From a plasmid: a stretch of 57,443 nucleotides of DNA. Below, piece after piece: positions 676-18,431 of this stretch. The notes below the pieces were generated by a model, which had not been told where the DNA came from, did not search any database, and was given only the letters and a program-made list of their open reading frames with translations. The number at the start of each line of letters is the position of its first letter. Positions within the stretch are counted from its first letter, which is position 1. A program made the position numbers and the translations under genes. The stretch lies in sequence record NZ_CP149754.1. One strand, given 5' to 3'.

Positions 676-737
676 ATTTATCAGTTGTATTAAATAATTT
701 AGTTTAGTTTATTTTAGTTTTGAGGGGGATTAATACA

Positions 738-914: not shown

Positions 915-916
915 AA

Positions 917-983: not shown

Positions 984-992
984 ATAGGTAGG

Positions 993-1217
993 AAATTATA
1001 TTAACTAAGTGGTATGTAAAGGGAGTAGGCAAGTTTTATAAACAAATAACAGGAAGATTTTATATTAACTATGTGGTATGTAAATTATATGGTGCTTTCC
1101 AGTCTTGTGGTTTTACAGGTTCGTTTTATATTAACTATGTGGTATGTAAATGCGTTTAGGAATATGACAGCATCTATTAATACGACAAGTTTTATATTAA
1201 CTATGTGGACTTAAAAT
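993..1217 (+). CRISPR. CRISPR array 1: 4 repeats (first and last degenerate), 3 spacers of 35-37 bp; C. difficile type I-B-like 29-bp repeat
   Basis: Repeats at 993, 1057, 1123 and 1189. The degenerate repeat lies at the distal end. Confidence 0.9.
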
Positions 1218-1230
1218 TAAAAATAATTCA

Positions 1231-1262
1231 AAAACACTTACAAATGAGTAAGTGTTTTTTTA
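1231..1262 (+). terminator. rho-independent terminator after array 1
   Basis: AACACTTAC...GTAAGTGTT stem followed by a T7 run. Confidence 0.5.
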
Positions 1263-1345
1263 ATGAAAGGAGGTGATAATGATGTAAAAATTTTACTGAT
1301 ATAGTATAATAATCCTATAAATTCATTATAATAAAGGGGGATATT

Positions 1346-2119
1346 ATGGGATTATTTAGTGGAAATGAAAGTTGTTGTATATGTGGAGAAAAAGGTAAAC
1401 AAAAAATATCTGATGGTGTAATATGTTCTGAATGTTTAAAAAAATATAAAGATACATTTTCTATAGTCGAACCAACAGATGTAATTAAAAAAATATCTTC
1501 TGAGGAAATAAAAAAATCAATAAGATTAACACTTGAAAATAAAAAAAGATTTGAATCTTTTAACGCAAGTAAAAAAGTAGGAATTTATTTATTAGTAGAT
1601 GAAAATAAAAAACAATTAATTATATCTGATAAAATAAGCAATTTAAATAAGAATAAGAGAGTATATGACTTTAGGGATATTATTTCATTTGAACTTTTAG
1701 AAGATGATGAATCTATAATTAAAAGTGGATTAGGTGGTGCTATTGGAGGAGGTCTTTTATTTGGCGAAACAGGAGCTATAGCTGGAAGTATATTAGGAAA
1801 GAAAAAAATAAAAACTTATGTAAATAGTTTAAAGATAAAAATTACAATTAATAATATAAAGAATTCTACAAAGTATATATATTTAATTAATTCTAAAATT
1901 TCTACAAATTCAAGTTTATATAAAGAATCTTATAATTATGCCCAAGAGATTTTATCAACTTTGTCTATAATAACAAGTTCTAAGAGTATAGAAGATAAAA
2001 AAGAGTCTATATCTAGTTCTACAGCTGATGAAATATTAAAATATAAGAATTTGTTAAATATGGAAGCTATTACACAAGAAGAATTTGATGCTAAGAAAAA
2101 AGAATTGCTAAATTTATAA
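1346..2119 (+). CDS. hypothetical protein with N-terminal zinc ribbon (CxxC..CxxC), glycine-zipper segment and C-terminal SHOCT-like motif
   Basis: AGGGGGA RBS. N-terminus CCICGEKG...CSEC; C-terminus EAITQEEFDAKKKELLNL resembles a SHOCT domain. Confidence 0.5.
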   Translation: MGLFSGNESCCICGEKGKQKISDGVICSECLKKYKDTFSIVEPTDVIKKISSEEIKKSIRLTLENKKRFESFNASKKVGIYLLVDENKKQLIISDKISNLNKNKRVYDFRDIISFELLEDDESIIKSGLGGAIGGGLLFGETGAIAGSILGKKKIKTYVNSLKIKITINNIKNSTKYIYLINSKISTNSSLYKESYNYAQEILSTLSIITSSKSIEDKKESISSSTADEILKYKNLLNMEAITQEEFDAKKKELLNL

Positions 2120-2185
2120 TATATAAGCACTTACTTAAAAATAAGTAAGTGCTTATATTATGTTAAAAAAGAAAGGAGGTTAAAA

Positions 2186-4474: not shown

Positions 4475-4489
4475 AAAGGAGGGATATAA

Positions 4490-5179
4490 ATGGCTTATGA
4501 CTTTTATTTAGATGGAGTACAATTACCAATACCTCCGCCAAAGTTAGAGATTAAAGTTACAAATAAAAACAAGACAGTTGATTTGATAAATACTGGAGAA
4601 GTAAACATACTAAAAAAAGAAGGATTATCTGAAATAAGTTTTGAAGCAGAATTTACACATAATAAGTTGCCATTCTATCGTGGAGCTTTTAGGGATGTTC
4701 AATTCTTTTTAAGTAAACTGGAACTATTAAAAACTGATTGTAAGCCATTTCAATTTATTGTATCGAGGGAATTAGGTAATAAAGTACTATTTAACACTAA
4801 TATAAAAGTATCTCTTGAAGAGTATGCTATTTCAGAAGATGCAGAAAATGGCTCAGATACAAAAGTTGCAATAAAGTTAAAGCAATATAGAGATTACTCA
4901 ACTAAAAAGTTAGTTCTTGCCCCTCCTAAAAATGAGACTGGTAGACCTAATGTAAAGATAGAGCCAAAACGAGTTGATTCAGTCAATGCCACAAACACTA
5001 AAACATATACAGTAAAAGCAGGGGATAGCCTTTGGTCAATTTGTCAGAAACAACTTGGTAATGGTTCATTATATAAGAAAGTATACGAATTAAATAAATC
5101 TATGATGGATAAGGCAAATAAGGGGAAGAATTTAAGTAAATACACCATCTATAAAGGGCAGGTGTTAAAACTTGGTTGA
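4490..5179 (+). CDS. XkdP-like tail protein with C-terminal LysM domain
   Basis: C-terminus YTVKAGDSLWSICQKQLGNG...YKGQVLKL matches a LysM domain. Confidence 0.7.
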   Translation: MAYDFYLDGVQLPIPPPKLEIKVTNKNKTVDLINTGEVNILKKEGLSEISFEAEFTHNKLPFYRGAFRDVQFFLSKLELLKTDCKPFQFIVSRELGNKVLFNTNIKVSLEEYAISEDAENGSDTKVAIKLKQYRDYSTKKLVLAPPKNETGRPNVKIEPKRVDSVNATNTKTYTVKAGDSLWSICQKQLGNGSLYKKVYELNKSMMDKANKGKNLSKYTIYKGQVLKLG

Positions 5180-7064
5180 TGAATTAGTGTTAGCAAATGA
5201 TAGAGATGTAAGATTAGTAATAGCTCATTGGGAAGATTTCTACGAACCTGCTGTCATTGATGGTATCACATGGGAGATAGAAAGAAGAGGAACACCTTCT
5301 AAGTTAGAATTTACAATAGTTATGGATGATATATTAGAGTTTTGCGAAGGAAATTCTGTAAGGCTGTATTATAAAGGAATAGGTATCTTCTATGGATATA
5401 TATTTCAGAAGAAAAGAGATAAAGAAAATCACATAAAAATTGTTGCTTACGACCAGTTGAGATATTTTAAGAATAAAGATACTTATGTATATAATAATCA
5501 AACTGCATCTGAACTTGTAAAGATGTTAGCTAAAGATTTTAATTTAAAATACAATGTCATAGAAGATACTAAGTATAAAATATCTAGGATAGAAGAAAAT
5601 AAAACACTCTTTGACATGATACTAACAGCACTAGATGATACTCTAAGAGAGAAAAAAGAAATGTATGTTTTATATGATGATTTTGGAAGAATAACATTAA
5701 AGAATGTTGCTTCTATGAAACTTGATACGGTTATGAACAATGATGTAATTGAGGACTTTGACTACAATTCTTCTATTGATAGTGATACTTACACAAAGAT
5801 TAAACTTGTGAGAGATAATGAAGAAACAGGGAAAAGAGATGTATATATTGCACAAGACTCTACACATATGAGGAGTTGGGGAATACTTCAAATGTTTGAT
5901 ACAGTAGATAAAAACATGAGTGAAGCAGAAATAAAACAAAAGTGTGATATACTTCTAAAACTATATAATAAGAAAACTAAGTCATTAAGTTTAAAAAATG
6001 TACTTGGAGATATTAGAGTAAGAGCAGGTTGTTTAGTACCTGTTTTTTTAAATCTAGGAGATATTAAACTTCAAAATTATATGTTAGTTGAGAAAGTAAA
6101 ACATACATTTGAAAATAATTCACATTTCATGGATTTGACTCTTGTTGATGGAGATGAATTTGCTTCTTATTCTTCAAGCTCATATTCAAGTGGAAATACT
6201 AACAATAAGGATGAAAAGAAAAATGGTCCTGCACAAAGTACTACGAAAAAAAATACAGGTAAAAAAGTTCCTGCTATATTTACTGCATATTATCCAGGGA
6301 ACAATGCAATGGAAGGTGGAAAAACAGATTGCAATGGAAAGCCACTTGATGTAAAATCAAGAACTGTTGCTGGTCCAATGAATCGAGAAGGAGTTAAGAA
6401 AACTTGGTATACTGATGATTTTCTAAAGAAACATCCAGTTTTTGAATATGGAGATAAAGTAAAAATTATACTTCCTGGTACTGCCTATGACAACAAAGTA
6501 TATACAGTTAAAGATAATGGAGGAAGAATATATGTTGAAACAAACGGAACATATCATATAGATATACTATTAGCTAATGCTAGTGAATGTAAAAAATTTG
6601 GTAGAAAGAATGGCTATATAATTATAGGTGGAGATGAAGAACAAACATATCAAGTTGAAGGTAATAACCAAAGTAGTACAAATAATAACTCTAAAGAAGA
6701 TAAATTAATTAGTGTAGCAAAAAGTAAACTGGGTTGTAATTATGTGTATGGAGCAGAAGGTCCTAATAATTTTGATTGCAGTGGGTTTACTCAATGGTGT
6801 TATAAACAAATAGGTATAAAAATTCCTCGTACTGCTTCTGCACAAAGTAAAGCAGGAAAAGCAGTAGATTTAAAAGATAGAAGCAAGTGGAAAGCAGGAG
6901 ACTTATTATGTAGAATTGGTGGAGGAAGTAGTAATCATGTTGTAATGTACATTGGAAACAATCAAATAATTCATTCACCACAAACAGGAGATGTGGTAAA
7001 AATAGAGTCTGTTAATTCTTATAGAAAAGGAAAAGCATACACACATGTGAGAAGATTTATATAA
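5172..7064 (+). CDS. XkdQ-like tail-associated protein with 3D (MltA-like) domain and C-terminal NlpC/P60 endopeptidase domain
   Basis: NlpC/P60 Cys motif NFDCSGFTQWCY with His in HVVMYIG. The 3D-like region is YYPGNNAMEGGKTDCNGKPL...YHIDILL. Confidence 0.7.
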   Translation: MVDELVLANDRDVRLVIAHWEDFYEPAVIDGITWEIERRGTPSKLEFTIVMDDILEFCEGNSVRLYYKGIGIFYGYIFQKKRDKENHIKIVAYDQLRYFKNKDTYVYNNQTASELVKMLAKDFNLKYNVIEDTKYKISRIEENKTLFDMILTALDDTLREKKEMYVLYDDFGRITLKNVASMKLDTVMNNDVIEDFDYNSSIDSDTYTKIKLVRDNEETGKRDVYIAQDSTHMRSWGILQMFDTVDKNMSEAEIKQKCDILLKLYNKKTKSLSLKNVLGDIRVRAGCLVPVFLNLGDIKLQNYMLVEKVKHTFENNSHFMDLTLVDGDEFASYSSSSYSSGNTNNKDEKKNGPAQSTTKKNTGKKVPAIFTAYYPGNNAMEGGKTDCNGKPLDVKSRTVAGPMNREGVKKTWYTDDFLKKHPVFEYGDKVKIILPGTAYDNKVYTVKDNGGRIYVETNGTYHIDILLANASECKKFGRKNGYIIIGGDEEQTYQVEGNNQSSTNNNSKEDKLISVAKSKLGCNYVYGAEGPNNFDCSGFTQWCYKQIGIKIPRTASAQSKAGKAVDLKDRSKWKAGDLLCRIGGGSSNHVVMYIGNNQIIHSPQTGDVVKIESVNSYRKGKAYTHVRRFI

Positions 7065-7077
7065 GTGAGGTGGCAAT

Positions 7078-7338
7078 ATGAGCCAAGATTTATTACAGAT
7101 AATAAAAAAAGCTGCAATGGATGCAGTAGAAACAAGCAACCCAATGAGGGTTGTATTTGGAACAATAGAAAGTATTAGTCCTCTAAGAGTTAAGATAGAA
7201 CAAAAACTATCTATTGGTGAAATTTTTCTAATACAAACAGATACATTTAAAAGATATACAGATAAAAAAATAGGAGATAAATTAGTCTTAATTCGTATGC
7301 AAGGAGGACAACAATACTTGATTTTAGATAGGATGTGA
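7078..7338 (+). CDS. small baseplate-associated protein (XkdR-like)
   Basis: 86 aa ORF with RBS, in the conserved position of PBSX-like tail modules. Confidence 0.5.
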   Translation: MSQDLLQIIKKAAMDAVETSNPMRVVFGTIESISPLRVKIEQKLSIGEIFLIQTDTFKRYTDKKIGDKLVLIRMQGGQQYLILDRM

Positions 7339-7342
7339 TGAA

Positions 7343-7762
7343 GTGTTACCAAGCGATAATTTAGATTATGACATTGAAGATGTATCAATAATTAATTTTG
7401 ATGTAAGGCAAGAACCAAGTAAGACCTTTAAATTAAATATAGAAAAATCTAAGATAGATGGTATTTGTGATGATGTTGAAGCATTAAAACAAACCATCTT
7501 TTTAATTTTAAACACAGAGAGATACCAACATCTAATATATAGTTGGAATTATGGAGTCGAGTTGAACGACCTTATTGGAGAGCCTATATCCTTTGTAATC
7601 CCCGAACTTGAAAGACGAATCAAAGAAGCACTAATTCAAGATGATAGGGTTGAAAATGTAGATAATTTTGAGTTTCAAAATGTAAAGGGTAAAGTACATT
7701 GTAAGTTCACAGTTTACAGTAAATATGGAGATATAAAAGCAGAGAAGGTGGTGAGTGTATAA
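7343..7762 (+). CDS. baseplate protein (XkdS-like)
   Basis: 139 aa ORF, in synteny with PBSX-like modules. Confidence 0.5.
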   Translation: MLPSDNLDYDIEDVSIINFDVRQEPSKTFKLNIEKSKIDGICDDVEALKQTIFLILNTERYQHLIYSWNYGVELNDLIGEPISFVIPELERRIKEALIQDDRVENVDNFEFQNVKGKVHCKFTVYSKYGDIKAEKVVSV

Positions 7763-8812
7763 TTGTTTGAGTTAATGACATTTGAAAATATAATTAAAAG
7801 AATGTTAGATAGTGTACCAGATACTTTTGATAAAAGGGAAGGTTCTATAATATACAATGCTCTTGCTCCTGTTGCAGTGGAGCTTACAGAAACATACATT
7901 GCAATGGATGAATTACTAGACCAAACATTCGTAGATACTGCTAGTTATTACTATTTAGAGAAGAGATGTAAAGAGAGAGGTATTACACCTTTACCTGCAA
8001 CCAATACAATTGCAAAAGGAGTTTTTAATATAGATATTCCTATTGATTCAAGATTCAACTTAGGAGAGTACAATTATGTGGCAATTGAGAGAATATCTGA
8101 AAAAACATATAAAATGAAATGTGAAACTGCTGGACCTATATTTGAGTTAGGGCAATTAATACCTATCGAATATATAGATGCTCTTGAAACTGCTGAGTTA
8201 ACAGAAATACTAATAAATGGAGAAGATGAAGAATCAGAGGACAGTCTAAGGCAACGATACTATGATAGTTTAAACTCACAAAGTTTCGGTGGTAATATAC
8301 AGAATTATAAGGATGAAGTTAATAAATTGCCTGACGTTGGGGGAGTTAAAGTATATCCAGTTTGGAACGGTGGAGGTACTGTTAAGTTAGTAATAATTAA
8401 TTCTAACTTCAAAGTTCCATCTAGTGATTTAGTTAATTTAGTTCAAGAAGAAATTGATCCTCTACAAAACCAAGGAGAAGGTCTTGGATTAGCACCAATT
8501 GGACACCGAGTCACAGTTGAAGGAGTTACAAGTACAACTATAAATATATCAGCAGAGATAACATACAAAAATGGCTACACTTGGGAGAATATAAAATCAA
8601 TTGCAGAAGAAGCAATAGACGACTATTTAAATGAACTTAACATGAGTTGGGAAGATGAAGAAAACTTAATAGTCCGTATATCTCAGATAGAAACTCGTTT
8701 GTTAAGTATAGATGGAGTGTTAGATATTACAAACACAATGATAAATGAGGTTAAATCTAATCTAACAATAAATAGTAACAGTATAGTAGTGAGAGGTGAG
8801 GTAGTTGGATAA
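7763..8812 (+). CDS. baseplate J-like protein (XkdT-like)
   Basis: 349 aa; size and position are typical of baseplate J. Confidence 0.6.
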   Translation: MFELMTFENIIKRMLDSVPDTFDKREGSIIYNALAPVAVELTETYIAMDELLDQTFVDTASYYYLEKRCKERGITPLPATNTIAKGVFNIDIPIDSRFNLGEYNYVAIERISEKTYKMKCETAGPIFELGQLIPIEYIDALETAELTEILINGEDEESEDSLRQRYYDSLNSQSFGGNIQNYKDEVNKLPDVGGVKVYPVWNGGGTVKLVIINSNFKVPSSDLVNLVQEEIDPLQNQGEGLGLAPIGHRVTVEGVTSTTINISAEITYKNGYTWENIKSIAEEAIDDYLNELNMSWEDEENLIVRISQIETRLLSIDGVLDITNTMINEVKSNLTINSNSIVVRGEVVG

Positions 8813-9422
8813 AGAGATTAATCTAATAAATTACTTACCACAAATTCTGCAAGATAAAGAAGAATATATAAAAGTATTTAATGTAGAAAATAAAGAAATA
8901 AAAACACTACATGAAAAATTAAATGACCTATCAAATGACCAGTTTTTAGAGGATTTAACTCCAAGTGGCATAAAAAGATGGGAAAAGATAATGTCTATAA
9001 CTCCTAAAAGTAATGAGAGTTTAGAAGATAGAAGGTTTAGGATTTTTAGTAAATATATAAGTAAATTACCTTACTCAGAGAGATTTTTAAGGAACTGGCT
9101 AGATAATGTAGTTGGAGAAGGCAATTATGAATTAACTATTAATAATGCTACTTATAACATACACCTTGAGAGTGATGCTAGAAATCAAGATTGGTTTGAG
9201 GAGGTTCATTCTTTTGTAAGTAGTATTAAACCTTGCAACATGACTTTAGATTACACTAGAGTGCTTGTAAGTAAAGACAATTATATGAATTTTGGTATAA
9301 CAACCCTAATAGGTCAAGAAATAACTATATACCCTTGGAGTCCACCAGATATAGAAACTTATGGAGAAATTGATGTATTAACTGGCAATGGAGTTGGATA
9401 CCAAGAGATAACAATATTTTAG
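8805..9422 (+). CDS. tail protein (XkdU-like)
   Basis: 205 aa ORF overlapping the upstream gene (operon-type coupling), in synteny. Confidence 0.5.
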   Translation: MDKEINLINYLPQILQDKEEYIKVFNVENKEIKTLHEKLNDLSNDQFLEDLTPSGIKRWEKIMSITPKSNESLEDRRFRIFSKYISKLPYSERFLRNWLDNVVGEGNYELTINNATYNIHLESDARNQDWFEEVHSFVSSIKPCNMTLDYTRVLVSKDNYMNFGITTLIGQEITIYPWSPPDIETYGEIDVLTGNGVGYQEITIF

Positions 9423-9433
9423 GAGGTGATATA

Positions 9434-10210
9434 TTGGCTATAGATAAAAGTTATTACACTATAATTACAGATGTAGGAAAAGCAAAGATAGCAAATGCAA
9501 GTATCACAGGTAATAAAGTGGGATTTGTAAAAATTCAACTTGGTGATGGAGGAGGGAGTGAATATACTCCAACTGAGAGTCAGACAGCTCTCAAAAATGT
9601 GGTATGGGAAGGCAATATCGGAAATACAACCACAGATGAAACTGCACCAAATTGTATAATATTAGAGAGTTTAATACCATCAAGTGTAGGCGGGTTTATG
9701 ATAAGAGAAATAGGATATTTAGATGATGAAAATAATTTAATTGCCATTTCTAAATACAAAGAGTGTTATAAACCTTCTATAGAACAAGGTGCAGTGGTAG
9801 ACATGAAGGTTAAAACTGTGCTTATTGTATCTAATGTAAATAATATAGAACTTAAAATTGACCCAACAATAATCTTTGCAACACTCAAAGATATACAGGA
9901 CTTAGAAACTAAAATAGGTACTGTTAATACTAAAATTGATACAACTAAAACAGAGTTAAACAGCAAAGTAGGAGACACAACACTACTTACTACAACAGAT
10001 AAAACAAATATAGTTAATGCATTAAATGAGGTAAAAAAAACTAGTGTAGATAGTATAGAAACAACAGCAGAGAAAACAAGTTATAATAATGCAACAAGTA
10101 AACTTAATGCTACAAATGTTCAAGGGGCGATTGATGAAATAGTAGCAGAGGTAAGAGGTAATAGAAGTAGTATTATATCTAGTATAAATGATAATTTGAT
10201 ACCAATGTAG
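9434..10210 (+). CDS. tail fiber / structural protein
   Basis: 258 aa, Thr/Asn-rich, consistent with a fibre protein. Confidence 0.45.
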   Translation: MAIDKSYYTIITDVGKAKIANASITGNKVGFVKIQLGDGGGSEYTPTESQTALKNVVWEGNIGNTTTDETAPNCIILESLIPSSVGGFMIREIGYLDDENNLIAISKYKECYKPSIEQGAVVDMKVKTVLIVSNVNNIELKIDPTIIFATLKDIQDLETKIGTVNTKIDTTKTELNSKVGDTTLLTTTDKTNIVNALNEVKKTSVDSIETTAEKTSYNNATSKLNATNVQGAIDEIVAEVRGNRSSIISSINDNLIPM

Positions 10211-10225
10211 AAAGGATGTGATTAA

Positions 10226-11686
10226 ATGCCTCCAGCGGAGACGTTCATATGTAATAGAATTGTTAAAAAAAGAAGAGGTTATTATTCAGAACGAGATGTT
10301 TTTCTTTCACCTTGTCCTTATGTTTATGGAGAAGGCGGTATGTATGAGTCAACTTACTATGGTGAGTTTGATTTAAGTAATTCTAAATATATAACAGTTC
10401 CTACAAGTACCAAATATGAAAAAACTGCAACTCGTGTTTATTTTATATCTGGTGGAAATATGATAACTAGTAGTAGTGGAATGAAACAAGCTATTACTCT
10501 TGAACTTATACCAGACCCTAATATTATTATAAATGATGATTTAGGTGTTATTAGTGATTCTTGTAATATAAATTATAGGATTCCAGACAGTAATACAAGT
10601 GTAAAATTTGATGTAACTGAAAAATTAAATGGTGTTGTAATATCTAAAAAAAACTATGCTCTTGATGGCAATTATACTTTAAATCTTACAGATGAACATT
10701 TATCAACTTTAAGTTTTAACTCTACAAATAATATAACTATAGAACTTAGTACTTATCAAGGGGGTAAGTTTTTAGAAAAAACGGTTACATTTACAAAAGG
10801 TAATACTAAACCAAAATTAAATATAACTTCTTATAATTCAACTACTGCAATCTTTACAGCAATAGACATAGATAATAACTTGTCTAAAATAGAGTGGTTC
10901 ATTGATGATGTATTAAAAGAAACAATAACAACAGATTTGTATTTAGAGAAAACAATCAACTATGAACTTACAGACAATGCAATACACACATTAAAAATAG
11001 TTGCTACAGATGCAGAAAATGCAACTGTTGAGAAGGTTTTAAGTATAAGCAAAGAGATAATGCCACTTCAAGAAGATGCTAGTTTAAGTGATATATCAAC
11101 TAAGTTAGCAGAGATTGGAGAAGAGTTTAGAAATGGTAAAACAAGTATTATAAATACTTTAGCATTAAAGAATATAGAAGCAAGTTTGAATAACACACTT
11201 GTTGAGTTATCAGAGAAAATAAAAACAAGTTTTGATAGTTCAGACGCTAGTGTGCAGGATTTGCAAAATAGAATAACAGAATTGAATAATCAGCTTAGTC
11301 AAAGAAAAAAATGGGCTACAGGTAGATATACATTTACAGATTTAGATATTTCAAATTTTACCTTAAACTCTGAATCAATTGTTCAGACGAAATCAATTAT
11401 AACAGATTTAAGTTTCACACCAAGTATAATAATAATTGATTCTATACAAATGAAAAGTGGAACTGATAGAGTTTATTTTCGATCTATAACAAATTTAGAT
11501 ATTACTATTGGTGCAAAATATACAAATTCATCCCTTCCAGTAGGAGGAAGTGGATATATTTATATACAAAAACCTACACCTAGTAATAATTTTTTATTAA
11601 TTTTAACCAGATTAGATGGTCAGGGAAGAGAAATAAGCTTTAGTCCAATTGTTGGGGAGACTTTGACATGGTATGCATTTGAATAA
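10226..11686 (+). CDS. tail fiber protein (XkdV-like); shares a ~140 aa internal module with 12367-14142
   Basis: Segment LNITSYNST...KIVATDAENATVEKVLSISKEIMPL...SLNNTLVELSEKIK is about 65% identical to a segment of the Gly-rich fibre. Confidence 0.65.
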   Translation: MPPAETFICNRIVKKRRGYYSERDVFLSPCPYVYGEGGMYESTYYGEFDLSNSKYITVPTSTKYEKTATRVYFISGGNMITSSSGMKQAITLELIPDPNIIINDDLGVISDSCNINYRIPDSNTSVKFDVTEKLNGVVISKKNYALDGNYTLNLTDEHLSTLSFNSTNNITIELSTYQGGKFLEKTVTFTKGNTKPKLNITSYNSTTAIFTAIDIDNNLSKIEWFIDDVLKETITTDLYLEKTINYELTDNAIHTLKIVATDAENATVEKVLSISKEIMPLQEDASLSDISTKLAEIGEEFRNGKTSIINTLALKNIEASLNNTLVELSEKIKTSFDSSDASVQDLQNRITELNNQLSQRKKWATGRYTFTDLDISNFTLNSESIVQTKSIITDLSFTPSIIIIDSIQMKSGTDRVYFRSITNLDITIGAKYTNSSLPVGGSGYIYIQKPTPSNNFLLILTRLDGQGREISFSPIVGETLTWYAFE

Positions 11687-11701
11687 TAAGGAGGTAATAA
11701 A

Positions 11702-12049
11702 ATGAATAGAGGAAATAGAATAATTTATAATCAAGACGGAAAGATATTACTCCAAACAGGAGAAGCAACAGGAGATATATTAGAACACGACACAATAACA
11801 GAATTAAATTTCATAGATTTAGAATTTGGAAGTATAGACTATAGTAAACAGTATATAGAGTCTATAAATCCAGTTACAAAAGAACCAGTTTTAAAAAATA
11901 TAGAGATTGTTTTGACTAATGAACAAAAGAGATTAGAAGTATTAGAAAAAGAGCTAAGCATGTTAAAAGAAGAAAATAAAAATAGAGATAGTGAGATAGT
12001 AAACACTGCTTTTGAAATAGAAAATATAAAATTAAATAATAACATATAG
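11702..12049 (+). CDS. XkdW-like small tail protein (coiled coil)
   Basis: 115 aa, position directly after the fibre gene. Confidence 0.45.
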   Translation: MNRGNRIIYNQDGKILLQTGEATGDILEHDTITELNFIDLEFGSIDYSKQYIESINPVTKEPVLKNIEIVLTNEQKRLEVLEKELSMLKEENKNRDSEIVNTAFEIENIKLNNNI

Positions 12050-12060
12050 GAGGAATTAAC

Positions 12061-12231
12061 ATGTATAATTTATTAAAACTTATGATAGAACAAAAGAACT
12101 ATAGTACTAAAGAGGATTTGCAACACAAAATGGATGTATTCTATGCAGTAAATAGGATTACAGAAGAACAATATTTAGAACTAACAAGTTTATTAAAGAA
12201 AGAAGAAATACCAGCAGAACCAACAGTTTAA
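12061..12231 (+). CDS. XkdX-like small protein (56 aa), not in the supplied ORF track
   Basis: AGGAGG RBS 6 nt upstream of ATG at 12061. The stop is followed by a hairpin terminator (AGAACC...GGTTCT plus T run). Confidence 0.5.
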   Translation: MYNLLKLMIEQKNYSTKEDLQHKMDVFYAVNRITEEQYLELTSLLKKEEIPAEPTV

Positions 12232-12366
12232 GAGAGGTTCTTTTTTTATTTCTAAAAATATATAAATTCATTTACATTTTGCCTACACTTCATCTACACT
12301 TTGTAGACGTTTATAGTTTTAAAATTAGGTACAATAAAACTATAAATTAAGAAAGAGGTGGATTAA

Positions 12367-14142
12367 ATGGCAACAGTTTATGAATTTAATTATACAGGAA
12401 GTGAACAACGTGCTACATTAAAACCCGGCAAGTATAAATTAGAATGTTGGGGGGCTTGTGGTGGTAGATATAAAGCTGATGATTTTACTACTTGTGCAAA
12501 AGGTGGTTATGCAAAAGGTGAAATTATATTAAAAGAGAAAACTAATTTTCGTATTTGTGTTGGTCAGTCAGGTTATGAAAAAGTTCTATCTACTTCTTCT
12601 TTTACTAGAACTGGTTATAATGGTGGTGGTGCTGGTGGATATTCTAATTTTGCTCCTTACAAATGGTCATTTGATGGTGGTGGTTCAACTGATATAAGAC
12701 TTTCTAGTGGTAATTCTTCTTGGGATGATTTAGAAGGTTTGCTTTCACGTATACTTATAGCAGGTGGTGGCGGTGGTGCTAGTGAATCTTCTGTTAGTAA
12801 ACTTGGTCATGGTGGTGGCTTAAATGGTGATAACGGAATTGGTTATCAAGGTAATTTCGCAGGTGGTGGCACACAATATCAAGGTGGTATTAATAATAGT
12901 TCAGATTTTGATGGTTTATTTGGTAAAGGTGGTAGTTATAATAAACATATAGGTGGTGGTGGTGGATGGTTTGGTGGTGCAGGTTGTGTTACAACTCAAA
13001 GTGCTGCTGGTGGTGGAAGTGGTTACGCACTAACTAAAGATAGTTACAAACCACAAGGATATATTCCATCATCAGAATATTGGCTAGAAAATGTAGTTAT
13101 GACCGCTGGAGGTAATACTACTAAAGCGGATGGTTATGCTAAAATAACATTACTACAAGCATTACCATTTTTGAATATATCCTCATATAATTCCACACAG
13201 GCAATATTTAAGGCTGACCACACAGACCCTACACTATTAACTAAGATAGAATATTTTATAGATGATACATTAAAAGAAACTATAACAACAGACTTAACAA
13301 CAGAGAAAACAATTAACTATACATTAGAAGATAATGCTCTACACACACTTAAAATAGTTGTTACAGACAATGCCAATGCTACAGCAGAAAAAGTTGTAAG
13401 TATAAGCAAAAATATAATGCCATTAGAGGATGGTGCTAGTTTACAGGATATAGCAACTAAAGTTAGCGAAATGAAAGATGGCTTAAAAAGCGGAAAAAGA
13501 AGTATTGTAAATGTATTAACATTAAAGGATATAGATGCAAGTTTAAACAATACATTTGTTGAATTATCTGAAAAGGTAAAAGATTATTTTGATAACGCAG
13601 ATTATTTTTTCCAAGAGGCTAACAAAGGAAAAGAATTAATTGCAACTACCATTGGTTCACCTGCAACAAAAGAAAATACTTATCAAGAATTATCAAGTTA
13701 TATAACTGAATTTAAAAATACTATAGGTACACTGACTACTCAACTTGAAAGTGCTAACAATAAACTGACAGACCCTTATATTACAAAAGTGAATAACAGA
13801 GGTGTTCCAAGTACTTTTACAGTTGATTTTCGCATGTATTATCCATCATCATCATTTACTCGTAGAAGTACTTGTATATATGTTGATGCTACTTTTATTC
13901 ACTATACTACACCAGGAGATATGAGTACAGGTGTTCATAAAAGTGTTAAATATGTTAAAACTGATACTAAAGATTTGAATGGTTATCGAATATTTTATGA
14001 TGGTGATGGAACTCTCAGCTTAACTTATGAAAATAATTCTGTGAGGGTTGTTATACAAGGAGGATATACAAGTTCACCTGGAAGAAAAAAATCTGATGTT
14101 TATTCTTATAATGTTCGTATGGTGAATACTTATTGGGATTAA
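12367..14142 (+). CDS. glycine-rich tail fiber / receptor-binding protein
   Basis: N-terminal GGGxGG repeats, a shared fibre module in the middle, and a unique C-terminus. Confidence 0.65.
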   Translation: MATVYEFNYTGSEQRATLKPGKYKLECWGACGGRYKADDFTTCAKGGYAKGEIILKEKTNFRICVGQSGYEKVLSTSSFTRTGYNGGGAGGYSNFAPYKWSFDGGGSTDIRLSSGNSSWDDLEGLLSRILIAGGGGGASESSVSKLGHGGGLNGDNGIGYQGNFAGGGTQYQGGINNSSDFDGLFGKGGSYNKHIGGGGGWFGGAGCVTTQSAAGGGSGYALTKDSYKPQGYIPSSEYWLENVVMTAGGNTTKADGYAKITLLQALPFLNISSYNSTQAIFKADHTDPTLLTKIEYFIDDTLKETITTDLTTEKTINYTLEDNALHTLKIVVTDNANATAEKVVSISKNIMPLEDGASLQDIATKVSEMKDGLKSGKRSIVNVLTLKDIDASLNNTFVELSEKVKDYFDNADYFFQEANKGKELIATTIGSPATKENTYQELSSYITEFKNTIGTLTTQLESANNKLTDPYITKVNNRGVPSTFTVDFRMYYPSSSFTRRSTCIYVDATFIHYTTPGDMSTGVHKSVKYVKTDTKDLNGYRIFYDGDGTLSLTYENNSVRVVIQGGYTSSPGRKKSDVYSYNVRMVNTYWD

Positions 14143-14245
14143 TAAAGATATTAAAAAAGTATAGGTGTTTGTATGCCAATAGAATTAAATAAAAAGAGCT
14201 TAGATAATTCTAAGTTCTTTTTTTATGTAAAAATTAGGAGGTAGT

Positions 14246-14536
14246 ATGGAAGAAATCAGCATAAATCTATTATGTGCAGTAGCAGGGGTTATAATATCCT
14301 ACTTAGCATTTAGAAATAGCTCAAACAGAAAGATACAAGATGAAACAGAAACAACTACAAAATTAGAACAACAAATAACTTTTCTGTGTGAGAATGTAAG
14401 AGATATAAAGCATGATGTAGCGAAGTTTAATACTAGTTTCTTAGATATTAGTGAACGAGTTGCAAAAGTAGAAGCAAGTACAAAACAAGCACATCTTAGA
14501 ATTGATGAAATTATAAATAGAATTGGAGGAAAATAA
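14246..14536 (+). CDS. XhlA-like / holin-associated small membrane protein
   Basis: One N-terminal TM helix followed by coiled coil; sits immediately before the holin. Confidence 0.45.
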   Translation: MEEISINLLCAVAGVIISYLAFRNSSNRKIQDETETTTKLEQQITFLCENVRDIKHDVAKFNTSFLDISERVAKVEASTKQAHLRIDEIINRIGGK

Positions 14537-14539
14537 AAG

Positions 14540-14797
14540 ATGGATAATTTAATAAGTTTTATACCAGAGCAGTTGCTAATTTTAGTAGCTGCTCTCTCTA
14601 TTATAGGCAAAGGTTGTAAAAAATATAAGCAATTAGATAATAAATACATTCCAATTATATTACTTGTGTTGGGAATTGGATTTTCAATATGGATGCTAGG
14701 ATTTAACCCTTCATCAATTTTACAAGGTATTTTATGTTGGGGAGTTGCAATAGGAGCAAATCAAGTTTATAAACAGTTGAAGGAGGAAAATAAATAA
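14540..14797 (+). CDS. holin
   Basis: 85 aa with two TM segments, directly upstream of the endolysin and overlapping its start. Confidence 0.7.
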   Translation: MDNLISFIPEQLLILVAALSIIGKGCKKYKQLDNKYIPIILLVLGIGFSIWMLGFNPSSILQGILCWGVAIGANQVYKQLKEENK

Positions 14798-15603
14798 TGA
14801 AAGTAGTAGTAGTACCAGGACATACACTAACAGGAAAAGGAACAGGGGCAGTTGGTTATATAGATGAAGGAAAAGAAAACAGAATTTTAACTGATTTAAT
14901 TGTAAAATGGTTGAAACAAGGTGGAGCTATTGTGTATACTGGAAAAGTAGATAAATCTAATAACTATTTAGCAGAACAATGTGAAATTGCCAATAGGCAA
15001 AATGTAGACTTAGCAGTACAAATCCATTTCAACGCAAATAAAACAACTCTAAATCCTATGGGTACAGAGACAATATACAAAACTAACAATGGTAAGGTAT
15101 ATGCTGAAAGAGTTAACAAAAAACTATCAACAATATTTAAAAATAGAGGTGCAAAATCGGACGCAAGAGGTCTTTACTGGCTTAGTCATACAAAAGCACC
15201 AGCAATATTAATAGAAGTGTGCTTCGTAGATAGTAAAGCAGATACAGACTATTATATCAGACATAAAGACATAGTTGCTAAATTAATAGCAGAAGGTATT
15301 TTAAATAAGACAATAGATAATAAAGAGAATGGTGAGGGGAAAATCATGTACAAACATACAATCGTTTATGATGGAGAAGTTGACAAAATCCCTGCAACTG
15401 TAGTTGGTTGGGGTTATAATGATGGGAAAATACTGATATGTGATATAAAAGATTACGTACCAGGTCAGACGCAAAATCTTTATGTTGTAGGCGGTGGAGC
15501 ATGTGAGAAGATAGGTTCTATTACTAAAGAGCATTACACAATGATAAAAGGTAATGATAGATTTGATACACTTTATAAGGCATTAGATTTTATTGATAGA
15601 TAG
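14797..15603 (+). CDS. endolysin, N-acetylmuramoyl-L-alanine amidase (Amidase_3), CD27L-like
   Basis: MKVVVVPGH...FKNRGAKSDARGLYWLSHTKAPAILIEVCFVDSKADTDYY...AEGILNK is closely similar to the C. difficile phage endolysin CD27L catalytic domain. Confidence 0.85.
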   Translation: MKVVVVPGHTLTGKGTGAVGYIDEGKENRILTDLIVKWLKQGGAIVYTGKVDKSNNYLAEQCEIANRQNVDLAVQIHFNANKTTLNPMGTETIYKTNNGKVYAERVNKKLSTIFKNRGAKSDARGLYWLSHTKAPAILIEVCFVDSKADTDYYIRHKDIVAKLIAEGILNKTIDNKENGEGKIMYKHTIVYDGEVDKIPATVVGWGYNDGKILICDIKDYVPGQTQNLYVVGGGACEKIGSITKEHYTMIKGNDRFDTLYKALDFIDR

Positions 15604-15855
15604 ATTGAGGATTGAATAAAATCCATTTACACTTTTCTTACATTTCATTTACACTTTTAATACAAATATACTATAAAAATACGATATAATTAAGACAGTT
15701 AAATTTATAATTAATATTAGTAAGAATCTTTAAAATAAATATAGCAACAGGTATATCATAACAAATAAATGACGAGAATTAGAGATAGTTAATCATGAGG
15801 ATAACTGTCTCTTTTTTATTGTCGAATAAATCAGAGAGTGAAGGGATTGAATAGA

Positions 15856-17115
15856 ATGAGAAAACTTGATAATATTAAGAAGGGCACTATAATTTTAGAT
15901 ATAATTCCTAATAGTGCAAATGGGAGAGATGCAATGAAAATTGAAAAAATTGAAATTAAAGGTATTGGTGGAATAAAAGAATTAAGTCTGAGGTTTAATA
16001 AAGGACTTAATATAATATGTGGTGCAAATGGTATAGGAAAGACAACTATTTTAGAAGTTATTTCACATCTTTTTTCTATACAATCTTCTGATTTAAAGAA
16101 AAATGCAAAATTTGATTTAGGAGAAGCAATAGCGGATTATTCGTTTGAAGATATAGAAGCTGTACATAAAAGTACTTATCAAATCAATGATTTCAATGCT
16201 TCTGTGAAAGAACTTATTTTTGATAATCGAGATAAAAAAAAATATAGTAAATTTGTGTTGTTTTTTAAGACACATAGAGAATTAAATTATTCAAAATTGG
16301 ATGGAATAACTGGAGATGAAACATATAGTGATGATAGTACATCTTATATGGCTGATTTAGGTATAGATTCAAGTAAAATAAAAAATTGGTTTATTAATAG
16401 ACTTCTTTTTTCTAAGCAAGAAGGTTCTCTTACAAAAGAACAATTATGTAATTTAGACTTAGCAATAGAAATGATTAGTATTTTAGATAAGAATGTATCA
16501 TATTCTAGAATTGTATCAGATTCTTTAGATTTAATGATAAATACTCCTCAAGGAGAAATTTATATAGAATATTTATCATCAGGATATAAATCATGTTTTT
16601 ATATATTATTAGGTATAATTAAGGAATTAGAATATAGATTTACTAAACCTTATATTGAAGTTAAGGATTTTGATGGTGTCATACTAATTGATGAGTTAGA
16701 CTTACATCTACATCCAGAATGGCAAGTTAAAATTGTAAATGCATTAAAAGTATTGCTTCCAAAGGCACAAATTATAGCAACAACACATAGCCCTAATATG
16801 ATACAAACACTATCACCAGATGAAATTATACCATTAACCATGGATGAAAATGGTAATGTGCGTAAAAAAGACTTAGAGTTAGGTGAATATGGATTGCAAG
16901 GATGGACTATTGAAGAAATATTGACAGATGTCATGGGAATGAAAACAACTTCTTCTGAGTTATATTTAGATACAATGAAAAAATTTGATAGAGCTATGGA
17001 TAAAGAGAATGTAGATGAAATCAAGAAATACTATGATATCTTGATGAAAATGTTACATCCAAATAGTACACTTAGAACAATACTGAAAATACAAGTGGCA
17101 GGAATAATAGATTGA
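15856..17115 (+). CDS. ptuA: AAA_15/AAA_21-type ABC ATPase, Septu PtuA-like
   Basis: Walker A GANGIGKTT near the N-terminus. Walker B/D-loop ILIDELDLHLHPEWQ...IATTHSP is typical of OLD/AAA_21 ATPases. The stop overlaps the next gene start (ATGA). Confidence 0.55.
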   Translation: MRKLDNIKKGTIILDIIPNSANGRDAMKIEKIEIKGIGGIKELSLRFNKGLNIICGANGIGKTTILEVISHLFSIQSSDLKKNAKFDLGEAIADYSFEDIEAVHKSTYQINDFNASVKELIFDNRDKKKYSKFVLFFKTHRELNYSKLDGITGDETYSDDSTSYMADLGIDSSKIKNWFINRLLFSKQEGSLTKEQLCNLDLAIEMISILDKNVSYSRIVSDSLDLMINTPQGEIYIEYLSSGYKSCFYILLGIIKELEYRFTKPYIEVKDFDGVILIDELDLHLHPEWQVKIVNALKVLLPKAQIIATTHSPNMIQTLSPDEIIPLTMDENGNVRKKDLELGEYGLQGWTIEEILTDVMGMKTTSSELYLDTMKKFDRAMDKENVDEIKKYYDILMKMLHPNSTLRTILKIQVAGIID

Positions 17116-17870
17116 TAAAAATAAATAGAACAAGAAAGCCTATTGAATTAACAGAAGAAGTTCAGAAACAATTAACAGAAGAATTTAAAAATAATAAAGA
17201 AAAAAGCGTGTGGAGGAAAAAGTATATTACAAATGCTCTACTTGAGATGTCTCATGGAAAATGTTGTTATTGTGAAATGAAATTGATAGAAGAGGGCAAA
17301 TCACTGAATGTAGAGCATTTTCACCACAAAGACAAATATCCTGATGAAGTAGTGAAATGGGAAAATTTATTGCCATCTTGTGGGAGATGCAATAGTGAAA
17401 AGGGTACTCATGACACTAAATTAGAACCTATAATAAATCCTGCAATAAATAACCCAAAAGATTATTTATATTTATATAATTATAGATATAAAAGTAAAAA
17501 TAGAAATAAACTTGGTAGTGATACAATTGATATATTATATTTGAATGATACAGACAAATTAATTAAACCAAGAGTAAATATTTGCATGGCTTTATTCAAA
17601 AGGTTAGAGTCTATAAAAACATTTGTTGAAGATTATCAAAATGGTACAGGAACACATACAAGAAGAAAAAATAAAATTATAAACGAAGTAAAAGGTGTAT
17701 TAAGATGCGCTCAACCAACTGAAGAATATAGTGCTATTGTGGCAAATGTTATAGTAAATGATGATGATTATAAATACATAAAAGAAATAATGTCAGAATT
17801 TAACTTGTGGGATAATGAACTAGAAGAATTAGAAAGTAAAGCAAAAGAAATAATGTTAGATTCAGAATGA
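17112..17870 (+). CDS. ptuB: HNH nuclease, Septu PtuB-like
   Basis: HNH signature CCYCE...EHFHHKDKYP...WENLLPSCGRCNSEKG. Translationally coupled to the upstream ATPase. Confidence 0.55.
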   Translation: MIKINRTRKPIELTEEVQKQLTEEFKNNKEKSVWRKKYITNALLEMSHGKCCYCEMKLIEEGKSLNVEHFHHKDKYPDEVVKWENLLPSCGRCNSEKGTHDTKLEPIINPAINNPKDYLYLYNYRYKSKNRNKLGSDTIDILYLNDTDKLIKPRVNICMALFKRLESIKTFVEDYQNGTGTHTRRKNKIINEVKGVLRCAQPTEEYSAIVANVIVNDDDYKYIKEIMSEFNLWDNELEELESKAKEIMLDSE

Positions 17871-17942
17871 AATACATATTAAAATAACTAGATACAATTA
17901 AATTTGAAAGTATAAAAAAAGAAGGTGATAAAAATTTCTTTA

Positions 17943-18431
17943 TCATCTTCTTTTTTTATACTTTCTTTCTTTAAGTTTTTTCTTTTTCATATCTTCTAAT
18001 ACATCTAATGCAGTAGTATAAAATTGTATTTCATCTCTGTAAGGCACAGCTATATCAAGAGATGTATTAATAGCTATAAATATGAGCACTATTATAGATG
18101 AGGATTGCAGAATTAAATTTATATAATTATCTTTAATATTTAATGAACTTAAAAATAAATTAGCAAGTAATGAAAAAACAACAGCCATAAGGGAGAAAAA
18201 CAATGCATTACCAGGATTATTATTTTTCTCTAACTGACCTTTAATTCTAGTTTGCTCAATTTCTATCTTTCTAATTGTATTAATATTCTTAATTTCATTG
18301 TAATGATTATAAATTTTTGTGTAATATTCTTGATAATTTATTACACTTTCTTTATTTCCCTTAAAGTATTTTATATCCTTCTTGATTTGTTTTTTCTTTT
18401 TTATATTTTTAAACCAATATTTCAAACTCAT
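17943..18431 (-). CDS. hypothetical 2-TM membrane protein (N-terminal basic coiled-coil region, C-terminal two TM helices)
   Basis: GGAGGGG RBS precedes the ATG at 18431; the ORF-track start at 18476 lacks an RBS. Convergent with the Septu-like operon and shares a bidirectional terminator near 17915-17960. Confidence 0.5.
   Translation of the reverse strand: MSLKYWFKNIKKKKQIKKDIKYFKGNKESVINYQEYYTKIYNHYNEIKNINTIRKIEIEQTRIKGQLEKNNNPGNALFFSLMAVVFSLLANLFLSSLNIKDNYINLILQSSSIIVLIFIAINTSLDIAVPYRDEIQFYTTALDVLEDMKKKKLKERKYKKRR

What the first reader, a model, noticed from the sequence alone, without database searches (positions are those of the whole stretch)
15856..17870. Septu-like two-gene defence system in the endolysin-integrase cargo slot
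A 419-aa AAA_15/21-type ATPase (GANGIGKTT; ILIDELDLHLHPEWQ...THSP) is translationally coupled (ATGA overlap) to a 252-aa HNH nuclease (CxxC, EHFHHKD, N, CGRCNSEKG). This is the PtuA/PtuB architecture of Septu. It sits directly after the endolysin, where temperate phages carry superinfection-exclusion cargo, and is followed by a bidirectional terminator. Not previously expected in phiCD119-like phages. It may protect lysogens from unrelated phages.
Basis: partly seen in the sequence, partly recalled or inferred. Interest (0 to 1): 0.7.

Follow-up and report, generated by a model that had tools for sequence, protein, structure and literature searches.

The report
Septu defence pair on C. difficile prophage
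A temperate Clostridioides difficile phage carries, just after its lysis genes, a two-gene Septu anti-phage system (an ATPase plus an HNH nuclease); this is a correct but fairly ordinary find, because the same cassette is already in many public C. difficile prophage sequences without being labelled Septu.

Summary
ORF A (15856/15934..17115) matches a PADLOC PtuA model end to end (E 3e-167). ORF B (17112..17870) matches a PtuB model end to end (E 4e-102). All ATPase and HNH/zinc-finger motifs are intact. The predicted folds match only solved PtuA and PtuB chains. There is no reverse transcriptase nearby, so this is a stand-alone type I Septu, not a retron I-A.

Corrections:
- The gene overlap is TTGA (TTG start), not ATGA.
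- ptuA has two in-frame starts, giving 419 or 393 aa.
- The nearest phages are phiC2, CDMH1 and phiCDKH02.

The pair is part of a ~2.9-kb cassette (15607..~18530). It recurs directly after the endolysin in several different C. difficile prophages, in at least three allelic forms. No sequenced C. difficile phage in INPHARED has it. Related pairs sit in C. perfringens and C. botulinum prophages and in about 30 IMG/VR contigs.

The one new point is a conserved leader upstream of ptuA, with a promoter-like block followed by a terminator hairpin. Its layout resembles the RCd22-AbiF arrangement in related phages.

Verdict: new member of a known kind; interest about 0.3. Defence activity is inferred, not shown.

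The parts
15617..15660 (+). Two tandem 22-nt repeats (core CATTTACACTTT) at the start of the cassette. Candidate regulator-binding or promoter-upstream element.
   Evidence: Found by the repeat finder. A second copy of the same block lies at 12264-12338, upstream of gene 12367. The core motif occurs 6 times against 1.2 expected. It is conserved in all C. difficile loci.
15685..15690 (+). TATAAT, a -10-like box within an invariant 21-mer (ACGATATAATTAAGACAGTTA). The predicted transcription start is near 15697.
   Evidence: Invariant in 6 loci, including the divergent L015. The same 19-mer lies 17 nt downstream of a TTGACA/TTGACG box in four different unrelated sequence contexts among IMG/VR contigs. 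The start site is inferred, not mapped.
15771..15824 (+). Leader hairpin with a T-run (core stem 15782-15791 / 15802-15811, T-run 15812-15817). Intrinsic-terminator-like, 38 nt upstream of ATG 15856.
   Evidence: RNA fold. The consensus fold keeps the hairpin in 6 variants, with 3 pairs changed on both sides, all in the L015 lineage. No Rfam family matches.
15856..17115 (+). ptuA, the Septu ABC/SMC-type ATPase. 419 aa from ATG 15856; an alternative in-frame start at ATG 15934 gives the 393-aa family core.
   Evidence: PADLOC PtuA1 E 3.3e-167. Pfam AAA_15, AAA_21, AAA_23 and SMC_N. PDB PtuA 8ee4 E 1.4e-20. Fold 8eea_C E 2e-21. Invariant Walker A, signature, Walker B and H-loop.
17112..17870 (+). 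ptuB, the Septu HNH nuclease (252 aa). TTG start overlaps the ptuA stop by 4 nt.
   Evidence: PADLOC PtuB1 E 4.3e-102. TIGR02646 50.3 bits and NF041761 77.7 bits, both below cutoff. AF2 model pLDDT 94; the only significant PDB folds are PtuB chains. Invariant C51, H69, N85, C93 and N94.
17912..17959 (.). Bidirectional intrinsic terminator shared by ptuAB and the convergent gene.
   Evidence: A 20-pair hairpin flanked by an A-run and a T-run; sequence.
17943..18431 (-). Convergent 162-aa gene for a protein with two predicted membrane-spanning segments (phrog_14014). It travels with the cassette in C. difficile but is probably not a Septu component.
   Evidence: No Pfam or PADLOC hit. Two hydrophobic segments. 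The family is confined to C. difficile. A 99% copy is always next to ptuAB. Distant 154-aa homologues occur without ptuAB. It is absent from the ptuAB loci of C. perfringens, C. botulinum and other IMG/VR contigs.

Best explanation
This is a stand-alone type I Septu anti-phage system (ptuA-ptuB). It is carried as accessory cargo on a temperate phiC2/CDMH1-like myophage of Clostridioides difficile.

Shown here:
- Both proteins are full-length members of the PtuA and PtuB families with all catalytic motifs intact.
- They form an overlapping two-gene unit bounded by hairpin terminators.
- The unit is part of a ~2.9-kb cassette inserted exactly after the endolysin stop codon, and the cassette recurs at that position in different C. 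difficile prophages.

Inferred from work on other Septu systems: PtuA oligomers hold the PtuB HNH nuclease inactive through the PtuA C-terminal helices and the PtuB helical C-terminal domain. Infection by a heterologous phage releases or activates PtuB, through a trigger that differs between homologues (tail fibre, SSB). PtuB then cuts nucleic acid: supercoiled DNA nicking in vitro, and tRNA-Tyr variable-loop cleavage in E. coli Septu and retron-Eco7. This stops phage replication, with growth arrest at high multiplicity of infection. The lysogen, and so the prophage, would be protected from competing phages.

Also inferred: expression is kept low because transcripts from the conserved upstream promoter-like block must read through a leader terminator before reaching ptuA.
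For: Family assignment: PADLOC PtuA1 E 3.3e-167 and PtuB1 E 4.3e-102, both end to end. Pfam AAA_15, AAA_21 and SMC_N are above cutoff. PDB sequence hits are PtuA 8ee4 (E 1.4e-20) and PtuB 9l7p/8ee7. AF2 models (pLDDT 94 and 86) hit E. coli Septu PtuA first, and for PtuB only PtuB chains.

Motifs: invariant G30xNGxGK36T, LSxGYK, IDE252-254 and TTHSP in PtuA. C51/C54/C90/C93, H69, N85 and N94 in PtuB.

Operon: a 4-nt overlap. ptuB lies directly downstream in 31 of 35 related IMG/VR loci.

Stand-alone status: no RT homologue in the window, no RT domain in the cargo genes scanned with Pfam (14797-27935), and no retron RNA among the Rfam gathering-score hits.

Cargo status: phage homology stops at 15604-15606. 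The shared block 15275..~18530 occurs in prophages with different holins and integrases.

Mechanism from the literature: PMC13096335 (Walker A/B and HNH mutants abolish defence; tRNA-Tyr cleavage), PMC12819146 (hexameric PtuAB, DNA nicking, ATP inhibition, CTE-CTD interface), PMC12184496 (SSB and tail-fibre escape mutants).
Against: No functional data exist for this or any clostridial Septu. Neither the trigger nor the substrate can be inferred from sequence, and published homologues differ in both.

Identity to characterised PtuA and PtuB is only about 16-22%. NCBIfam PtuA/PtuB equivalog models, built on retron Ec78, score below cutoff. Pfam HNH is below the gathering score.

Expression in the lysogen is not shown. 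The promoter-like block is shared with a gene in the late tail-fibre region (12367). In C. perfringens and C. botulinum prophages the pair sits inside late operons. Expression may therefore be late or lytic rather than lysogenic.
Confidence: 0.85

Rival explanations
1. The pair serves the phage's own lytic cycle, for example by degrading host DNA or tRNA or excluding co-infecting genomes during late infection, rather than protecting the lysogen.
For: The repeat/promoter block ahead of ptuA is duplicated upstream of gene 12367 in the late tail-fibre region. This suggests co-regulation with late genes. In C. perfringens the pair lies between the minor capsid and scaffold/capsid genes. In C. botulinum it lies between the tail fibre and the XhlA/holin/lysin genes. 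In both it is on the same strand as the late genes.
Against: All characterised PtuAB systems act as host-protective defence (PMC13096335, PMC12819146). In C. difficile the pair is separated from the lysis genes by a terminator-ended leader and has its own downstream terminator. The pair is dispensable, since close relatives such as phiCDKH02 and phiC2 lack it.
Confidence: 0.08
2. The cassette acts mainly as an addiction or stabilisation module: a toxic nuclease held in check, whose loss kills cured cells. Its role would be to keep the prophage in place rather than to defend against phages.
For: PtuAB is toxic when deregulated in retron systems (PMC12819146). The leader layout resembles RCd22-AbiF, which was proposed to contribute to prophage stabilisation (PMC12373285).
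Against: There is no labile antitoxin gene. Stand-alone Septu is tolerated without a partner (PMC13096335). The leader shows no abiF motif.
Confidence: 0.05
3. It belongs to a different or larger system: a retron type I-A effector module, an OLD/Gabija/PARIS-type ATPase system, or a three-gene system that includes the linked 162-aa membrane protein.
For: NCBIfam's nearest named models are the retron Ec78 PtuA and PtuB. AriA models hit at E 1e-25. The 162-aa gene accompanies ptuAB in every C. difficile locus examined that extends past ptuB. One relative (L002) has an RcaT-like gene plus an RT gene 1.5 kb away.
Against: There is no RT in the window, and no Toprim domain was found in PtuA, PtuB or the cargo genes scanned. 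The retron models score far below cutoff (133.9 against 500; 77.7 against 150). The PtuA hit is about 140 orders of magnitude better than the AriA hit. The membrane-protein family occurs without ptuAB, and ptuAB occurs without it outside C. difficile.
Confidence: 0.03

Closest known systems
Septu type I (PtuA/PtuB) of Bacillus and E. coli (structures 8EE4, 8EE7, 8EEA; Septu EcB88)
   Same: Same two-gene architecture: an ABC/SMC-like ATPase followed by an HNH nuclease. All catalytic motifs are present. PtuA has C-terminal helices and PtuB has a helical C-terminal domain. There is no RT. These are the best PDB matches by sequence and fold.
   Different: PtuA is compact (393-aa core against 465 aa in 8ee4). 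Identity is only 16-22%. In C. difficile and some other clostridia PtuA has an optional 26-aa N-terminal extension. The signature motif is LSSGYK (Tyr where E. coli Septu has Leu and retron PtuA has Gln). The system is phage-borne and preceded by a terminator-ended leader.
Retron type I-A (Ec78/Eco7, Ec83) PtuAB effector
   Same: Homologous ATPase and nuclease. These PtuB chains are the closest solved relatives by sequence (9l7p E 6e-8).
   Different: There is no RT, ncRNA or msDNA. PtuA is much shorter than the 550-aa retron PtuA, so it probably lacks the retron-specific N-terminal extension and helical flap described in PMC12819146 (inferred from length and weaker matches, not checked residue by residue). 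The equivalog models are below cutoff.
RCd22-AbiF of C. difficile phages phi027, phiC2 and phiCD2301 (PMC12373285)
   Same: A phage-borne defence gene in the lysis-module region of the same phage group. Upstream layout is promoter, then a ~120-130-nt RNA ending in an intrinsic terminator, with no obvious promoter between terminator and gene. The TSS-to-ATG distance is about 159 nt here against 168 nt there.
   Different: A different effector family. There is no abiF motif (RF03085) and no sequence similarity between the leaders (with a positive control). Transcription of the ptuA leader has not been shown.
Burkholderia phage KS9 gp32/gp33
   Same: The only cultured-phage genome in INPHARED with a full-length homologous pair.
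   Different: Identity is 28-30%, and the host and genome position are unrelated.

Membership tests
Septu type I | PtuA: an ABC/AAA_15-type ATPase recognised by PtuA profiles over its full length | tested here: met
   PDLC00305 E 3.3e-167, residues 1-392 against profile 1-390 of 392. AAA_15 87 bits and AAA_21 81 bits, both above cutoff.
Septu type I | Intact Walker A, ABC signature, Walker B and H-loop in PtuA (needed for defence in Septu EcB88) | tested here: met
   GANGIGK36TT, LSSGYK, ILIDE254 and TTH285SP are present and invariant in 27 homologues. They align to 8ee4.
Septu type I | PtuB: an HNH nuclease recognised by PtuB profiles, with the PtuB fold | tested here: met
   PDLC00342 E 4.3e-102 over the full length. 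AF2 pLDDT 94. The only PDB folds with E<=1e-3 are eight PtuB chains, including Septu 8eea_G. Pfam HNH alone is below cutoff.
Septu type I | HNH catalytic His and Asn, and the zinc-binding Cys4, in PtuB | tested here: met
   H69, N85 and N94 are invariant. C51 and C93 are invariant, and C54 and C90 are at least 90% conserved. They align to the retron PtuB motif.
Septu type I | ptuA and ptuB adjacent, in the same orientation, in one operon | tested here: met
   4-nt TTGA overlap. ptuB lies within -1 to +22 nt of ptuA in 31 of 35 related viral loci.
Septu type I | PtuA:PtuB assembly through the PtuA C-terminal helices and the PtuB helical C-terminal domain (6:2 complex) | not testable with these tools
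   The models show three C-terminal helices in PtuA (342-388) and a helical PtuB C-terminal domain (147-247). No complex was modelled.
Septu type I | Anti-phage activity that depends on both enzymes | not testable with these tools
   This needs plaque assays in C. difficile.
Retron type I-A | A reverse transcriptase and an msr/msd ncRNA next to ptuAB | tested here: not met
   The neighbours are an endolysin and a membrane protein. tblastn with an RT finds nothing in the window. No retron RNA appears in Rfam.
Retron type I-A | NCBIfam equivalog scores for retron Ec78 PtuA and PtuB | tested here: not met
   133.9 bits against a cutoff of 500; 77.7 bits against a cutoff of 150.
OLD / Gabija / PARIS ATPase-nuclease systems | A Toprim nuclease fused to or partnered with the ABC ATPase | tested here: not met
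   There is no Toprim domain, and the partner is an HNH nuclease. AriA models hit at only 1e-25, against 1e-167 for PtuA.
abiF/RCd22-type leader RNA | abiF motif (Rfam RF03085) in the leader | tested here: not met
   No hit even at E<=10. The phiCDKH02 Abi leader gives 37.6 bits as a positive control.

The most novel reading that the evidence does not exclude
In C. difficile prophages, Septu is controlled at the RNA level. A conserved promoter-like block drives a ~120-nt leader that ends in a structurally conserved intrinsic terminator just before ptuA. ptuAB would then be made only by read-through. This would be a safety catch, or possibly an RNA partner, analogous to RCd22-AbiF in the same phage group but with an unrelated RNA. 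The leader is more conserved (93-96% identity) than the ptuAB alleles it precedes (66-68% protein identity).
Probability: 0.3. Interest if true: 0.5.

Novelty: new member of a known kind. Interest (0 to 1): 0.3.

Why it matters
C. difficile phages are all temperate and are being engineered for therapy. Prophage-borne defence systems shape which therapeutic phages can infect which strains.

Recognising that an 'AAA family ATPase / hypothetical protein' pair present in many C. difficile prophages is a polymorphic Septu locus adds a candidate resistance determinant to check when phage host range fails. The locus has at least three alleles at one site. It also shows that this compact Septu clade is commonly phage-borne in clostridia.

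Nothing here changes the understanding of Septu itself. The conserved leader is the only part that might.

Tried and rejected
- A megablast of the cassette against INPHARED phages found nothing. tblastn found only Burkholderia phage KS9 and weak partial hits.
- Literature searches for Septu in C. difficile found no report. The first search was swamped by 'septum'.
- The Li et al. 2024 Septu structure paper is not held, so its findings are cited second-hand through PMC12819146 and PMC13096335.
- The third gene as a Septu component was rejected.
- The leader as an abiF/RCd22 homologue was rejected.
- An upstream segment (15692-15701) that could pair with the 3' arm of the leader hairpin as an alternative structure (I1) was rejected, because the pairing is lost in L015.
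- The 14-nt direct repeat 15609/15844 (D2) was rejected as a cassette boundary, because it is absent from the other loci.
- The sigma-70 consensus hit TTGATA-16-TATAAT at 15866-15893 was not relied on. Promoter-like hits in this AT-rich region are no more frequent than in shuffles, and the -10 is degraded in L015.
- A codon-position test of the 26-aa N-terminal extension (7/6/10 differences, from the sequences) was inconclusive.
- The window contains no tRNA genes.
Full report
**What is there**

ORF A ends at TGA 17113-17115. It can start at GTG 15838 (425 aa), ATG 15856 (419 aa) or ATG 15934 (393 aa). ORF B is 17112..17870 (252 aa). All quoted motifs are present.

The overlap is TTGA, with a TTG start over the TGA stop, not ATGA. 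The N-terminal residues of ORF B (M1, I2, K3, R6, P10) are conserved across the family, so the TTG start is right.

Upstream is an Amidase_3 endolysin (14797..15603). Downstream is a hairpin at 17912-17959, flanked by an A-run and a T-run and shared with a convergent gene. A large serine recombinase lies at 23854..25371 on the minus strand.

**Context**

The tail and lysis module (180..15605) is 86-90% identical to C. difficile phages phiC2, CDMH1, phiCDKH02 and phiMMP01/03. Every alignment stops at 15593-15606, the endolysin stop. phiC2 is now classed in the genus Yongloolinvirus.

In phiCDKH02 the same position holds a cell-wall-binding protein, and an Abi gene sits between holin and lysin. 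The region is therefore a variable cargo slot.

The window reads as a permuted phage genome: head and tail genes run off the 3' end and continue at the 5' end. No terminal repeat was found.

**Family assignment**

- PADLOC gives PtuA1 (PDLC00305, E 3.3e-167, profile 1-390 of 392) for ORF A and PtuB1 (PDLC00342, E 4.3e-102, full length) for ORF B. The next non-Septu family is AriA at 1e-25.
- Pfam gives AAA_15, AAA_21, AAA_23 and SMC_N above cutoff for A. For B, HNH and Endonuclease_7 are just below cutoff.
- NCBIfam's retron Ec78 PtuA and PtuB equivalogs hit both proteins but far below cutoff.
- Against PDB sequences, the best hit for A is Septu PtuA 8ee4 (E 1.4e-20). For B the hits are retron I-A PtuB chains (E 6e-8) and Septu PtuB 8ee7 (E 0.009).
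- AlphaFold models built on homologue alignments are confident (PtuB pLDDT 94.4, PtuA 86.1).
- In a Foldseek search of the PDB, the PtuB model matches eight chains at E<=1e-3, and all eight are PtuB. The PtuA model matches E. coli Septu PtuA first (8eea_C, 2e-21), then retron PtuAs.
- In an alignment of 27 PtuA homologues, Walker A (G30xNGxGK36T), the signature LSxGYK, Walker B IDE252-254 and the H-loop TTHSP are invariant.
- In an alignment of 30 PtuB homologues, the Cys4 set (C51, C54, C90, C93), H69, N85 and N94 are invariant or nearly so.
- The window contains no reverse transcriptase. No retron RNA appears in Rfam. The immediate neighbours are unrelated genes.

This is a stand-alone type I Septu, not a retron I-A.

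**Distribution**

The identical PtuA is already in NCBI as 'AAA family ATPase [Clostridioides difficile]' (P0001). Variants at 88%, 68% and 66% identity also come from C. difficile.

In every C. difficile locus that includes the upstream flank, the order is endolysin, a ~250-bp gap, ptuA, ptuB overlapping by 4 nt, then a convergent 162-167-aa gene. The flanking prophages differ in holin type, tail fibres, and tyrosine versus serine integrase.

blastn places the shared block at 15275..~18530, while phiCDKH02 homology stops at 15606. The mobile cassette is therefore about 15607-18530. A 99% copy of the 162-aa gene is listed in 54 blocks of the contig collection. In all six places shown, from 24 contigs read, it lies next to ptuAB.

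Outside C. difficile the same Septu clade is again prophage-borne, but at other positions:
- In C. perfringens it lies between the minor-capsid and scaffold/capsid genes (listed in 68 blocks).
- In C. botulinum it lies between the tail fibre and XhlA/holin/lysin genes.

IMG/VR holds 35 related loci, and 31 have ptuB directly downstream. PHROGs already has families for both proteins (phrog_8323 at 1e-163, phrog_16016 at 3e-147).

In contrast, no cultured C. difficile phage in INPHARED carries the pair. Only Burkholderia phage KS9 has a distant pair. A 2026 survey counted Septu in just 17 INPHARED genomes, mostly Lambdavirus. I found no paper reporting Septu in C. difficile.

**How it most likely works**

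This section is inferred from other systems. In E. coli Septu EcB88, Walker A/B and HNH mutations abolish defence. Infection triggers cleavage of the tRNA-Tyr variable loop, and growth is retarded at high multiplicity of infection (PMC13096335). Stand-alone PtuAB forms a hexameric PtuA assembly with PtuB bound through the PtuA C-terminal extension. It nicks supercoiled DNA and is inhibited by ATP (as summarised in PMC12819146). Triggers differ between homologues: tail fibre in B. thuringiensis, SSB in Lactococcus (PMC12184496).

The clostridial proteins keep the catalytic residues, the C-terminal helices of PtuA and the helical C-terminal domain of PtuB. The same general scheme is therefore the best guess. 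Substrate and trigger remain unknown.

**The upstream leader (new here, unproven)**

The ~250 bp between the lysin and ptuA is part of the cassette and is highly conserved. The aligned region has mean column identity of 93%. The leader plus the first ~80 nt of ptuA is 93.5-96% identical even where PtuA is only 67-68% identical. The ptuAB bodies therefore seem to have been exchanged behind a constant leader.

The leader contains:
- two tandem 22-nt repeats (15617-15660);
- an invariant TATAAT (15685-15690), whose 19-mer context follows a TTGACA/TTGACG box by 17 nt in unrelated viral contigs;
- a hairpin plus T-run (15782-15817) that keeps pairing through three double changes in the one divergent lineage.

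Only 38 nt separate the T-run from ATG 15856.

The repeat/-10 block is duplicated upstream of gene 12367. There it is followed directly by an RBS, with no leader.

In related C. difficile phages the AbiF gene is preceded by RCd22. That arrangement has a SigA promoter, a 100-132-nt RNA with a terminator, no second promoter, and a transcription start 168 nt before the ATG. Read-through gives abiF mRNA, and the RNA neutralises the toxin (PMC12373285).

The ptuA leader has the same layout (about 159 nt from the predicted start to ATG 15856). It has no abiF motif and no sequence similarity to RCd22 (with a positive control). I rate a read-through or attenuator role at about 0.3. An RNA-antitoxin role is much less likely.

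**Start codon**

ATG 15934 is preceded by GGGAGAG and coincides with the start of the PADLOC profile. C. perfringens PtuA starts at the equivalent position after a GGAGG.

ATG 15856 is preceded by GAAGGGA. The 26-codon extension stays open and recognisably similar in C. difficile variants, in C. botulinum (TTG start) and in other Clostridium species. Codon-position differences between the window and L015 are 7/6/10, which is not decisive. Both forms may be made.

**Third gene**

The 162-aa protein with two predicted membrane-spanning segments (17943..18431, minus strand) has no Pfam or PADLOC hit. It is confined to C. difficile and always accompanies this cassette. More distant homologues are widespread without ptuAB, and ptuAB elsewhere lacks it. 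I treat it as a hitch-hiking accessory gene.

**Verdict**

The Septu reading is supported. This is a new member of a known kind, already present but unlabelled in public data. Interest is about 0.3. The leader is the only element with some potential for novelty.

Noticed in passing
window 15604-15855: The conserved cassette leader contains tandem 22-nt repeats, an invariant TATAAT context and a hairpin terminator 38 nt before the ptuA ATG. The hairpin shows compensatory changes in one lineage. The layout mirrors RCd22-AbiF, but the sequence is unrelated.
   Followed up: partly
window 12264-12338: A second copy (73% over 75 nt) of the repeat/-10 block lies directly upstream of the 591-aa glycine-rich protein gene (12367..14142). 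This suggests a shared phage-specific promoter or regulator site.
   Followed up: partly
window 15856-15936: ptuA has two in-frame starts, each with its own RBS. A 26-aa N-terminal extension is conserved in several Clostridium lineages but absent from C. perfringens and from the family core.
   Followed up: partly
L005, L032 and L019-L024 compared with window 15275-16083: Mosaic pattern: the lysin C-terminus, the leader and the first ~150 nt of ptuA are 88-96% identical, while the rest of ptuAB is about 79% identical at the nucleotide level (67-71% at the protein level). This points to allelic replacement of the defence genes behind a constant leader. At least three alleles exist in C. difficile.
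   Followed up: partly
window 17943-18431 (-): A C. difficile-specific 162-aa protein with two predicted membrane-spanning segments (phrog_14014) is always linked to the cassette. Distant homologues occur in another prophage-like context without ptuAB. Its function is unknown.
   Followed up: yes
window 1123; 28526-28818; 52727-53154; 55797-56089 (all -): CRISPR-DR14 repeats lie inside the phage genome. There are 15 repeats above the Rfam gathering score, in at least three arrays plus a lone repeat. The phage therefore carries CRISPR arrays as well as Septu.
   Followed up: no
L002 13508-15715; L003 4161-6368: In one C. difficile prophage the Septu cassette is followed about 1.5 kb downstream by an STM3845 (RcaT-like) gene and an RVT_1 reverse transcriptase gene. 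This is probably a retron-type defence system, which would make a small defence island in the cargo slot.
   Followed up: no
L009-L012 6001-7933; L013 6001-8012: The same Septu clade sits inside the late structural modules of C. perfringens prophages (between minor capsid and scaffold) and C. botulinum prophages (between tail fibre and lysis genes). It is on the late-gene strand.
   Followed up: partly
window 18761-22984: Other cargo lies between Septu and the integrase: two small genes for putatively secreted proteins (127 and 135 aa; inferred from hydrophobic N-termini, not tested), a 388-aa ORF with no hit in Pfam, PADLOC or PHROGs (20381..21547), a BlaI/Penicillinase_R-type repressor (21766..22155) and a VanZ-like protein (22475..22984).
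   Followed up: partly
L025-L028, L030, L031: The 19-mer GATATAATTAAGACAGTTA recurs in four different unrelated sequence contexts among IMG/VR contigs (six loci). In each it lies 17 nt after a TTGACA/TTGACG box and shortly before a gene start. This is an oddly conserved -10 plus initial-transcribed sequence.
   Followed up: no
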